The notes beneath the pieces are model-generated. The model searched no databases. It saw only the letters and a list, made by a program, of their open reading frames with translations, and was not told the origin of the DNA. A program made the translations under genes and the position numbers. From Eledone cirrhosa (lineage: Eukaryota): DNA of 64,000 nt. Shown in pieces: positions 28,575-59,765 of the stretch (the stretch's first letter is position 1; each line of letters begins with the position of its first letter). Location: positions 24,614,001 to 24,678,000 of the forward strand of contig OZ024763.1 in NCBI GenBank assembly GCA_964016885.1, in the 5' to 3' direction.

Positions 28575-28614
<40 letters not shown>

Positions 28615-28648
28615 AGATTTGAATGGATACAGTTTAGTTGAAAGGAAT

Positions 28649-28765
28649 TTATTGACACGTGTTTCTATAACAGTTACATAACCTAAAACAGCTATCTACA
28701 AACTTTTAGTTATGCAGACATTCAATATTTCAATGTTATTGTTTACTGTCATTTCATCAGAATAA
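28649..28765 (-). ncRNA. Type I hammerhead with 70-nt loop II insertion
   Basis: Minus strand reads ttatt CTGATGA a atgacagt [70 nt] actgttat a GAAA cacgtg TC aataa: stem I 5 bp, stem II 8 bp, palindromic stem III, GUC site. Confidence 0.75.
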
Positions 28766-29136
28766 TATTACTGAGGACCTATTTAGTTTTTATAGAGAAT
28801 ATTAGGAGGAAGGGGTGAAGTTGTTAGAAGAATAGTTGAAGGAGTGGTTTTTCGATAGCAGTGAGAATTCTTGGTGGCAGTGATTAATTAGATTCCCATC
28901 TGTTGTTTTGACATTTTTTATAGAATATATTATTGGTTATTTTTCTAAATCTATAGAAGGATTAGAGATAGTAAAGATATGCGTGGTTGGTTTTGTGTTT
29001 GCACTTAACATTCAGACTTAAATTTTTCTTTCAAGTGTACGTATTCTTTCACCCACGCATTCACACACAAATATATTTGCACACCTCTACAAAATACTAT
29101 ATATATATAGGAAAATATATAGTCCATATGGACTGT

Positions 29137-29232
29137 ACCCCTTGATAAGTTCAGCTAGACTACTACTGTCCTAACATTACTGGGTTAGTTCAGATCTAGC
29201 TGTCGAAACGGCCGGAGCTCAGCCGTCGGGGT
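29137..29232 (+). ncRNA. Full-length family B hammerhead, U3-A8 variant with extended stem III
   Basis: acccc TTGATAA gtt cagctaga [35 nt] tctagctg tc GAAA cggc cggagctca gccg TC ggggt. Confidence 0.75.
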
Positions 29233-29484: not shown

Positions 29485-29545
29485 TTTCATTTACCAGTGG
29501 TTTCTTAAAAGCAAAAAAATTTGGCTTTCAATCATCAGAATGAAA
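29485..29545 (-). ncRNA. Type I hammerhead ribozyme in a ~110-bp island between (TA)n tracts
   Basis: Minus strand reads tttcatt CTGATGA ttgaaagc caaattttttt gcttttaa GAAA cca c tgg TA aatgaaa: 7-bp stem I, 8-bp stem II. Confidence 0.85.
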
Positions 29546-50240: not shown

Positions 50241-50449
50241 GGTAGAACAACAGAAGGCCTTAGTGGTAACATTTTTTCAAGTTTTACTGTTTCCAATACA
50301 ACATACGTATTTCTTTGGCCTAGACAGATTATCCCATGATGATGCAATACATAGGCGATTTCATCAGGTTTGGTTTGCGAAATGATTGTATCATGGTTTA
50401 GTAACCGCAATGATCAGTTCTACCCACTGGTAAACCACAGAATATAAAT

Positions 50450-50499: not shown

Positions 50500-50708
50500 T
50501 AGGAACGAGCAGGACCCCGACGGCTGAGCTCAAGCCGTTTCGACGGCTAATTCTGGACTCAGAATTAGCGTCCAGAATTAGCCGTCGAAACGGCTTGAGC
50601 TCAGCCGTCGGGGTCCTACTCGTTCCTATTACCCACTCTACTACCCTAAGTATTGAGTACTTTGGTGCGTTATGGTCCACCTGGTTCCTTACCACATTTC
50701 CTCCGTTA
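50499..50708 (+). mobile_element. Family B fold-back element (131-bp hairpin at 50499-50629)
   Basis: Arms 50499-50558 and 50570-50629 with one mismatch; tail matches 29233-29327. Confidence 0.85.
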
Positions 50709-52930: not shown

Positions 52931-53591
52931 TATCTGTCTATCTTATCTATCCATACGTCTCTCTCTCTCTCTCTCACTGTCTCTCTCTATATATATACTA
53001 TCCGCGAGCCAGGTGAGGGGTCATGTTGGAAGTACCTCCTCTAATATACAGTGTTGTCCATGACTGGACCCCGAAACCAATGGTTACATACATGTTAAAT
53101 GAAACATTATTTATACTATATATAAATAAATAAATAAATATATATATATATATATATGTATTAAATATTATACTCTTGATTTGGCCAGAGATGAATATTT
53201 CCAGATACCTTTTAAGTGTAACTTTCCGTATTTGTTATTTGTATGAAATATTGATCGTTATTCTGGTATCTTATCTCTGTTTTTAGCCTAAGAAAATACC
53301 TATATGCGTGTATAAATAATACATGCATATATTTATTTTAAAAAAATCTAATTGAGTTCTTCACACGCAAGGTTAAAATTATTGAAAGAATTAATTGACC
53401 CGCGTGCATATTATTTTATTTTCTTGTGTTTTGCAATGACCTCCCCTTTCCGCTTGATGACAGTGTGAAATTTCTCATTCTGAGACTGCTGGAATTTCAA
53501 ATTTGGCGGTCATTCTGACACGGAAGGGGACCATCGCTGAACATTGGATATCGGTAAGAAAAATTTCTTTTATATCGATGTTTGACGGGCA

Positions 53592-53713
53592 TCCACTGAT
53601 GATTTATAAGTGCCCACCTACATATATTCCTACGGACTATGTGTAGGCTTCTGCATGACCTGGACATTATTTTCCCAACTTGTAGAAAACTTATAATGAA
53701 ACAATTGTTTGGA
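53592..53713 (+). ncRNA. Type I hammerhead with 77-nt loop II insertion
   Basis: tcca CTGATGA t ttataagt [77 nt] acttataa t GAAA caattg TT tgga. Confidence 0.75.
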
Positions 53714-53890
53714 AAGGGAGATGTATTTTAATTATGTCTCATATAAAACAATACAACTGGCTATCCGCAAAATACATATAGTTAGCACCCCAAACGTAAA
53801 ATTGGGATTATACTAAGGTATATCCTAATGTTTGTTGAGTGAGATGGAAGCCGGTCAGAGTATAGCTTAAAGCTTTCTCTGTTAATGTAT

Positions 53891-53926
<36 letters not shown>

Positions 53927-53931
<5 letters not shown>

Positions 53932-54888
53932 AAATGGGGAGAAGAATACTGCAGGTTGCACATGGATAACATGTTGTAAAATGAGTCCCTCATCAGTGAT
54001 TTGCCAACGATCATAGATATTTCATTGCATTAAAAATCATATACCTCACGTTGGTGCAATAATAACTAAATTAAGTTATTAGGACAATTAAAACGCGTAA
54101 AGCGAGTGAGACAAGTAAACAACAAAGAGGAAAGCTAACCGTAGATAGGAAGGGAACAAGCTACATAGTTATTCTGTCAGCATAAGCTGGGTGAATATAT
54201 GAGCGCTTAGAAAAAAGACCTTTCGAGATGAATCCAAATGTAAGAAAGAAGGAAATTGTATTCGTCGCGAACGGGGTGAAGTGAGAAGAGGAGAAACAGT
54301 GAGTGAGTGAGTGGAAGTGTGACGAAGAGGTCAGTAGAGAGAAAGTGTTAACTGACATGACAGAGGGGGCGAAAGAAAGTAGGAGAAACAGAGAGAACGA
54401 GGGAGCAGTAAGAGAGAGAGAGAAAAACAGAATCGCAGTTTAGGTAAATATATGTGAAAAAATGGGGAGAAGAATACTGCAGGTTGCACATGGATAACAT
54501 GTTATAAAATGAGTCCCTCATCAGTGATTTGCCAACGATCATAGATATTTCATTGCATTAAAAATCATATACCTCACGTTGGTGCAATAATAACTAAATT
54601 AAGTTATTAGGACAATTAAAACGCGTAAAGCGAGTGAGACAAGTAAACAACAAAGAGGAAAGCTAACCGTAGATAGGAAGGGAACAAGCTACATAGTTAT
54701 TCTGTCAGCAAAAGCTGGGTGAATATATGAGCGCTTAGAAAAAAGACCTTTCGAGGTGAATCCAAATGTAAGAAAGAAGGAAATTGTATTCGTCGCGAAC
54801 GGGGTGAAGTGAGAAGGGGAGAAACAGTGAGTGAGTGAGTGGAAGTGTGAGGAAGAGGTCAGTAGAGAGAAAGTGTTAACTGACATGA
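53927..54888 (-). mobile_element. Family R, partial tandem (period 528 bp, ~1.8 units) bounded by (TA)n
   Basis: TGAAAAAATGGGGAGAAGAATACTGC at 53927 and 54455; near-identical units. Confidence 0.85.
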
Positions 54889-59723: not shown

Positions 59724-59765
59724 GGCTCTGATGAACGCCAACCAGCGTGAAACAGACTGTCAGCT
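59724..59765 (+). ncRNA. Type I hammerhead ribozyme, canonical core
   Basis: ggct CTGATGA acgc caacca gcgt GAAA cag a ctg TC agct; predicted cleavage after C59761. Confidence 0.85.

What the first reader, a model, noticed from the sequence alone, without database searches (positions are those of the whole stretch)
53592..53713. Second, unrelated long-loop-II hammerhead with a structured 77-nt insert
tcca CTGATGA t ttataagt...acttataa t GAAA caattg TT tgga. The insert holds its own hairpin (CCTACATATA 53616-53625 pairing with TATGTGTAGG 53638-53647). Its sequence is independent of the 28649 ribozyme, so enlarged loop II recurs (also 35 nt at 29137 and a decayed case at 50300-50370 minus). This suggests a structural subclass.
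Basis: partly seen in the sequence, partly recalled or inferred. Interest (0 to 1): 0.75.

Follow-up and report, generated by a model that had tools for sequence, protein, structure and literature searches.

The report
Branched-arm hammerhead in non-coding Penelope element
This is a hammerhead ribozyme motif whose second arm is expanded into a conserved two-hairpin branch, carried by thousands of copies of a small non-coding jumping element, and many copies begin just after the predicted cut site, which suggests the RNA likely cuts itself in the animal.

Summary
Confirmed, with one hairpin missed. 53592-53713 is a type I hammerhead motif (0 matches in 100 shuffles). Its 77-nt insert holds two hairpins, forming a three-way junction kept by compensatory changes across four subfamilies (9 of 40 pairs). 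It lies in a 730-bp non-coding unit inserted in (TA)n as partial tandems and inversions: a non-autonomous Penelope-like element (retrozyme type), with 2,330 motif matches genome-wide against 0 controls. The 28649 ribozyme is unrelated in sequence and belongs to an autonomous Hydra-type element with an unbranched arm. So the long arm is a trait of this genome's Penelope-like elements; this scan noted that before on other DNA. New here: the branched fold, and 5' ends of insertions piling up 0-12 nt after the predicted cut (30 of 95, against 3 in the 43 nt before it; 5 of 29 in a second sample). That fits cleavage in vivo, but TA microhomology and reverse-transcriptase stalling are not excluded. 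No cleavage or RNA data; no autonomous partner found. New variant of a known kind.

The parts
53156..53902 (+). One full turn of a non-coding 730-bp unit (53156-53885) plus the 17-nt junction repeat; non-autonomous Penelope-like/retrozyme-type insertion
   Evidence: Boundaries from related loci, partial tandem and inverted copies; longest non-repetitive frame in the doubled unit 76 aa
53592..53713 (+). Type I hammerhead motif; predicted cut after 53709 (GUU)
   Evidence: covariation
53604..53696 (+). Helix II, 8 bp (53604-11 with 53689-96), with a U-U opposition at its base (53603/53697) that is A-U and G-C in two other subfamilies
   Evidence: 3 of 9 pairs with change on both sides
53617..53647 (+).
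   Evidence: 2 of 9 pairs change on both sides; column 35/62 occurs as G-C, G-U and A-U; upper part shifts register between subfamilies
53649..53687 (+).
   Evidence: 2 of 7 pairs change on both sides, 98.5% of cells paired
53587..53615 (+). Possible pseudoknot: GGGC 53587-90 with GCCC 53612-15
   Evidence: 97.4% of cells paired, no change on both sides: conserved, not proven
53700..53709 (+). Helix III / loop III, perfect 10-nt palindrome AACAATTGTT
   Evidence: Sequence; CAATTG exchanged for CGATCG in 6 of 19 aligned copies
53710..53902 (+). Structured 3' tail; insertions end at its 3' foot; likely the reverse-transcriptase start region
   Evidence: 8 of 49 predicted pairs with change on both sides in 7 sequences; fixed 3' ends; 5,405 tail-motif matches, control 0
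53140..53155 (.). Upstream (TA)n flank
53903..53927 (.). Downstream (TA)n flank
28609..29103 (-). Comparison only: terminal-repeat fragment of a young autonomous Hydra-type PLE, with the 28649 hammerhead (88-nt unbranched arm)
   Evidence: 99.8% identical over 495 bp to the repeats flanking a 3,596-bp unit

Best explanation
The motif is a type I hammerhead with a conserved branched helix II inside a high-copy non-coding element that likely borrows the enzyme of Hydra-type Penelope-like retrotransposons, and it likely cuts its own RNA in vivo. Shown: motif, branch, unit, tandem and inverted copies, (TA)n flanks, fixed 3' end, pile-up of 5' ends. Inferred cycle: transcripts of partial-tandem loci carry two hammerheads, which pair through the palindromic helix III and cut after the GUU. 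The PLE protein nicks (TA)n and starts reverse transcription at the 3' foot of the tail, about 190 nt downstream of the cut. On a cut RNA it runs off near the new 5' end and joins the target, often by TA microhomology, giving tail-only (about 180 nt) or unit-plus-tail inserts. On uncut or religated RNA it reads through, giving partial tandems. For the insert itself I favour (about 40%) a folding role: the junction would present GCCC to the GGGC upstream of stem I, replacing the usual loop I-loop II contact. The window's copy has one hammerhead, so it would cut only with a partner RNA.
For: Descriptor 0 in 100 shuffles. Covariation 8 of 39 and 9 of 40 pairs, 97% and 94% of cells paired against 35-49% when slid. 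Palindrome kept through a double change. Partial tandem and inverted copies, fixed 3' end in (TA)n. 5' ends: 30 of 95 at 0 to +12, 7 at +13 to +55, 3 at -43 to -1; 10 of the 30 lie at +8 or less, mostly in a purine tract; AT-like sites at -100 to -44 (25 in all) drew 4 ends. Second sample 5 of 29, none at -43 to -1. An 88-nt rod arm in the autonomous family causes no such pile-up, 0 of 21 resolved loci. Core CUGAUGA-U...U-GAAA with GUU and a palindromic helix III matches several Hydra-clade rows in PMC8557442 File S2. Active Hydra-type elements with near-identical copies and (TA)n ends exist in this genome.
Against: No cleavage, probing or RNA data. Twenty of the 30 piled ends, and all 5 in the second sample, lie at +9 to +12, where the sequence resembles (TA)n; ends also gather at the TA-like unit junction. 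The second sample gives 17%, not 32%. The monomer minimum-energy fold does not form stems I and III. Double changes are mostly a few subfamily-level events, not independent. The pseudoknot shows no covariation. No autonomous element sharing this hammerhead or tail was found among 374 loci. In print, a PLE hammerhead was dispensable for insertion in vitro and no RNA reads ended at its cut site (PMC11167929), and 8 of 9 Xenopus retrozyme dimers did not cleave in vitro.
Confidence: 0.65

Rival explanations
1. The ribozyme is poorly active; 5' ends gather at +9 to +12 because reverse transcriptase pauses at the foot of the folded hammerhead and the cDNA there anneals well to (TA)n.
For: Most piled ends sit on TA-like letters; stops at the same place occur on the second turn as well (about 880-920 nt inserts); stem I's 3' strand begins at +0.
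Against: Ends at 0, +1, +2, +4, +7 in a purine tract and a sharp edge at 0. The strong helix (II) begins about 13 nt upstream of the cut, where few ends fall. The 88-nt rod family has none. A short-armed family shows a weak version, 3 of 21.
Confidence: 0.2
2. The 5' edge marks a transcription start (capped RNA) that happens to lie at the cut site, as an earlier scan note proposed for other families.
For: PLE terminal repeats hold promoters (review passages, PMC6765202); a defined 5' end gives the same pile-up.
Against: The edge coincides with the predicted cut in three subfamilies 72-78% alike; I saw no consistent extra G at the junctions (by eye).
Confidence: 0.07
3. The branched insert is mainly a docking site for the PLE protein or a host protein rather than a folding aid (role of the insert only; compatible with cleavage).
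For: Conserved unpaired letters in the linker and the P2b internal loop; a PLE hammerhead was protein-assisted in vitro (PMC11167929); many autonomous families also keep long arms.
Against: Long arms differ in length, sequence and shape between families. The tail, not the insert, marks where copying starts. In PAc the binding region mapped downstream of the hammerhead.
Confidence: 0.3
4. The insert is a tolerated spacer: any sequence is kept as long as it folds on itself and leaves the core free.
For: Helix II length varies from 14 to 103 nt among families in this genome; P2a shifts register between subfamilies.
Against: Arm length stays 92-96 nt and the junction, linker and P2b are kept in subfamilies 72-79% alike.
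Confidence: 0.2

Closest known systems
Hydra-clade PLE hammerheads (Craig et al. 2021, PMC8557442; read: passages, section 11, supplement parts 1-2 with File S2)
   Same: Type I, near the element's 3' end, CUGAUGA-U...U-GAAA core, palindromic helix III, GUH site, (TA)n target, partial tandems and inversions.
   Different: Published Hydra stems II are 3-7 bp with loops of 3-10 nt; here 8 bp plus a 77-nt three-way junction, in an element with no ORF. Longest loop 2 in that table is 35 nt (PLE-X1_sMoe).
Metazoan non-LTR retrozymes (Cervera and de la Pena 2020, PMC7229834, passages only; Li et al. 2026, 10.64898/2026.07.22.740005, parts 1-3 of 5, supplements closed)
   Same: Non-coding unit with one type I hammerhead, dispersed and in tandem, proposed to be moved by PLEs; unit length inside the 51-972 bp range reported.
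   Different: Enlarged branched helix II; mostly partial rather than full tandems; circular RNA and expression not shown here.
PLE minimal hammerheads (Cervera and de la Pena 2014, PMC4209133, parts 1-2 of 4)
   Same: Short helix I (4-5 bp), longer helix II (7-8 bp), extra nucleotide after the core, palindromic helix III for dimer cleavage.
   Different: Large structured insert; helix III present; G10.1-C11.1 kept in only one subfamily.
R2 retrotransposon HDV-like ribozyme (PMC3774820, search listing and start of abstract only)
   Same: A ribozyme cut that defines the 5' junction of insertions.
   Different: Different ribozyme and element class; there cleavage was shown in vitro, here it is inferred from junctions.

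Membership tests
Type I hammerhead ribozyme | Core CUGANGA / GAAA / NUH with helices I-III | tested here: met
Type I hammerhead ribozyme | Helices supported by covariation | tested here: met
   9 of 40 pairs change on both sides, in stems I, II, III and both inner hairpins
Type I hammerhead ribozyme | Self-cleavage at the NUH site | not testable with these tools
   Indirect only: 5'-end pile-up
Type I hammerhead ribozyme | Helix I-helix II tertiary contact | tested here: inconclusive
   GGGC/GCCC pairing conserved, no covariation
Rfam hammerhead families | Match to a curated model | tested here: not met
   No hammerhead family among 8 matches at E<=10 over 53150-53905
Non-LTR retrozyme / non-autonomous PLE | Non-coding repeat unit with one type I hammerhead, tandem and dispersed copies | tested here: met
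   copies of up to at least three units
Non-LTR retrozyme / non-autonomous PLE | PLE insertion pattern: fixed 3' end, 5' truncation, partial tandem, inversion | tested here: met
Non-LTR retrozyme / non-autonomous PLE | Expressed as circular RNA | not testable with these tools
   No RNA holder listed
Hydra-clade PLE (this element) | RT-GIY-YIG ORF with RWK, DKT, CxCx5C | tested here: not met
   No ORF; no autonomous copy with this hammerhead among 374 loci. Works like a Hydra passenger; not filed as a Hydra element.
Hydra-clade PLE (28649 family) | RWK, DKT, CxCx5C linker, C-terminal GIY-YIG, (TA)n target | tested here: met
   Read by eye in the 785-aa frame against section 11 of PMC8557442; no tree built; Pfam gave 0 families
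Naiad PLE | N-terminal endonuclease, no canonical type I hammerhead | tested here: not met
   Canonical type I motif here; neighbouring autonomous family has a C-terminal endonuclease

The most novel reading that the evidence does not exclude
A natural hammerhead variant in which a three-way junction on helix II forms a pseudoknot with the stem I flank and makes it an efficient cutter, and whose genomic insertion junctions record in vivo cleavage of a Penelope-type RNA, whereas the rod-armed autonomous family shows no such record.
Probability: 0.3. Interest if true: 0.75.

Novelty: new variant of a known kind. Interest (0 to 1): 0.5.

Why it matters
Whether PLE hammerheads cut in vivo is open: their function is called unclear (PMC8557442), and one study found no RNA ends at the cut and no need for cleavage in vitro (PMC11167929). 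Insertion junctions offer a read-out from DNA alone, and this family gives a strong signal beside a negative family in the same genome. It also shows that Rfam and short-spacer descriptors (7-17 nt in PMC8557442) miss thousands of hammerheads, and supplies a natural branched helix II for structure work.

Tried and rejected
Rfam on the whole window returned microsatellite-driven miRNA noise; only the top 150 of 386 rows were visible. No RNA holder listed; the three contig runs laid add nothing on expression. I first labelled the autonomous neighbour Naiad, then Neptune, from recall; both dropped. The covariance model could be run on held sequence only, not genome-wide. One search was an uninformative pattern. 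One search used a structure string misplaced in two helices; replaced. The constrained-fold energy was invalid and is not used. Search for an autonomous partner: 33 of 275 unit-bearing loci also had a Hydra-type ORF hit, but from different families, in varied orientation, with (TA)n between where collinear; none in 30 further loci; the 4.6-kb spaced pair L365 is a segmental duplication without ORF. SECIS in the 28649 arm considered by eye from recalled consensus and rejected. Lunse et al. on small PLE hammerheads was not held, so known only through the review. Literature searches for long or branched helix II and for 5' truncation at the cut gave no listing describing either in PLEs; the library lacks most subscription papers, and bioRxiv supplements were closed.

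Full report
Observation. The strands are as described, apart from a one-base slip in the inner hairpin (53617-53626). A type I descriptor found 4 sites in the window (arms of 95, 88, 27 and 14 nt) and 0 in 100 dinucleotide shuffles made in 500-nt blocks. As a monomer the whole motif does not fold into stems I and III at minimum energy; helix III is a perfect 10-nt palindrome, the arrangement linked to dimer cleavage (PMC4209133). Rfam gave no hammerhead match among 8 rows at E<=10.

Host element. The region had 1,863 first-look candidates in the 3.0-Gb genome; the 39 best others are 94-97% identical. Copies define a 730-bp unit (53156-53885) whose end runs back into its start, with a fixed 3' end in (TA)n, variable 5' ends, partial tandems and an inverted copy. 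The longest non-repetitive frame in the doubled unit is 76 aa. Related subfamilies are about 78% (993-bp unit), 72% (704-bp unit) and 79% identical, all with the same layout. A pattern for this hammerhead gives 2,330 matches and one for the tail 5,405, both with 0 in the reversed control.

Structure. On 19 hand-picked copies, 8 of 39 pairs change on both sides and 97% of cells pair; on a second, wider set of 19, 9 of 40 and 94%, against 35-49% when slid, with 3 of 500 shuffles reaching 9. Changes fall in stems I, II, III, P2a and P2b, but are mostly a few subfamily events. The loop III palindrome switches CAATTG to CGATCG. GGGC before stem I and GCCC in the linker are nearly invariant and complementary, without covariation. 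The 3' tail also folds with 8 of 49 pairs changed on both sides in 7 sequences, and insertions end at its 3' foot.

Relation to 28649. That ribozyme has no hit with this family's model. [quoted passage not shown] Its arm is an unbranched rod. A pattern for 60-90-nt arms gave 2,400 matches, control 0, from several families that mostly fold as rods, some 0.4-0.6 kb downstream of Hydra-type ORFs. Earlier scan notes reported this long-arm trait. No autonomous element with this family's hammerhead or tail was found, so the partner is inferred from the shared core pattern (File S2), the (TA)n target and the layout.

5' ends. I sampled insertions by 3'-tail queries starting 57-74 nt after the predicted cut. 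Of 106 loci held I dropped 2 query loci, 6 second loci of one insertion and 3 unresolved; 14 listed places were not fetched for this count. Of 95 ends, 30 lie at 0 to +12, 7 at +13 to +55 and 3 at -43 to -1 (binomial p 1.6e-13 against the downstream window; one end moved from -8 to 0 by the stated rule). Ten lie at +8 or less. A position-ordered sample gave 5 of 29, with 2 at +13 to +55 and 0 at -43 to -1; all 5 are at TA-like +9/+11, and 2 loci overlap the first set. The autonomous rod family gave 0 of 21 loci with a visible 5' end (9 of 30 ran off the locus). A 419-bp short-armed family gave 3 of 21 (8 arrays and 1 spurious start left out, counted by eye, p 0.026). Microhomology clearly shapes the junctions, so the pile-up supports cleavage without proving it.

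Mechanism. Best reading (0.65): dimer-assisted cleavage makes 5' ends at 53710; a Hydra-type protein primes at (TA)n, starts at the tail (internal initiation was shown for another PLE, PMC11167929) and either runs off the cut end or reads through uncut or religated RNA. Rivals for the pile-up are stalling with microhomology (0.2) and a transcription start (0.07). For the insert: folding aid through the pseudoknot (0.4), protein dock (0.3), tolerated spacer (0.2). Against activity: in print, PLE hammerheads cleave poorly, were dispensable in vitro, and 8 of 9 retrozyme dimers failed.

Verdict. A real, conserved new variant of a known kind: PLE/retrozyme type I hammerhead. I found no listing of a branched helix II or of 5' ends at the cut in PLEs, within a library lacking most subscription papers; 28-35-nt loops are published, and this scan has noted long arms and cut-site pile-ups in other genomes. 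Interest 0.5.

Noticed in passing
window 29138-29228 (+): Hammerhead with U3-A8 core variant, 56-nt arm and long helix III; its 3' half (GAAACGGC...GCCGTCGGGG) recurs as fold-backs, e.g. 50510-50600
   Followed up: partly
window 59724-59765 (+) and 29485-29545 (-): Two further type I hammerheads not in the finding, arms of 14 and 27 nt
   Followed up: no
window 53917-54360 and 54445-54888: 98% identical 444-bp direct repeats, 528 bp apart, right after the element
   Followed up: no
L305-L307 (G000:C3:218.05 Mb): 322-bp pieces of the autonomous family in tandem and inverted, starting 21 nt before the cut and running into the ORF start: possibly a nascent non-autonomous derivative
   Followed up: no
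L376-L379, L397-L399, L404: Long tandem arrays of a 419-423-bp unit with a short-armed hammerhead: a classical retrozyme
   Followed up: partly
L004, L020, L035, L119, L265, L276, L369: Several families with 49-52-nt arms: 6-7-bp helix, internal loop (often pyrimidine-rich), then a hairpin
   Followed up: no
L098 839-1112: Subfamily B carries an internal duplication of about 250 bp, making its unit 993 bp
   Followed up: partly
L092:3599-5953 (-): Intact 785-aa Hydra-type frame with no Pfam match at E<=0.01
   Followed up: partly
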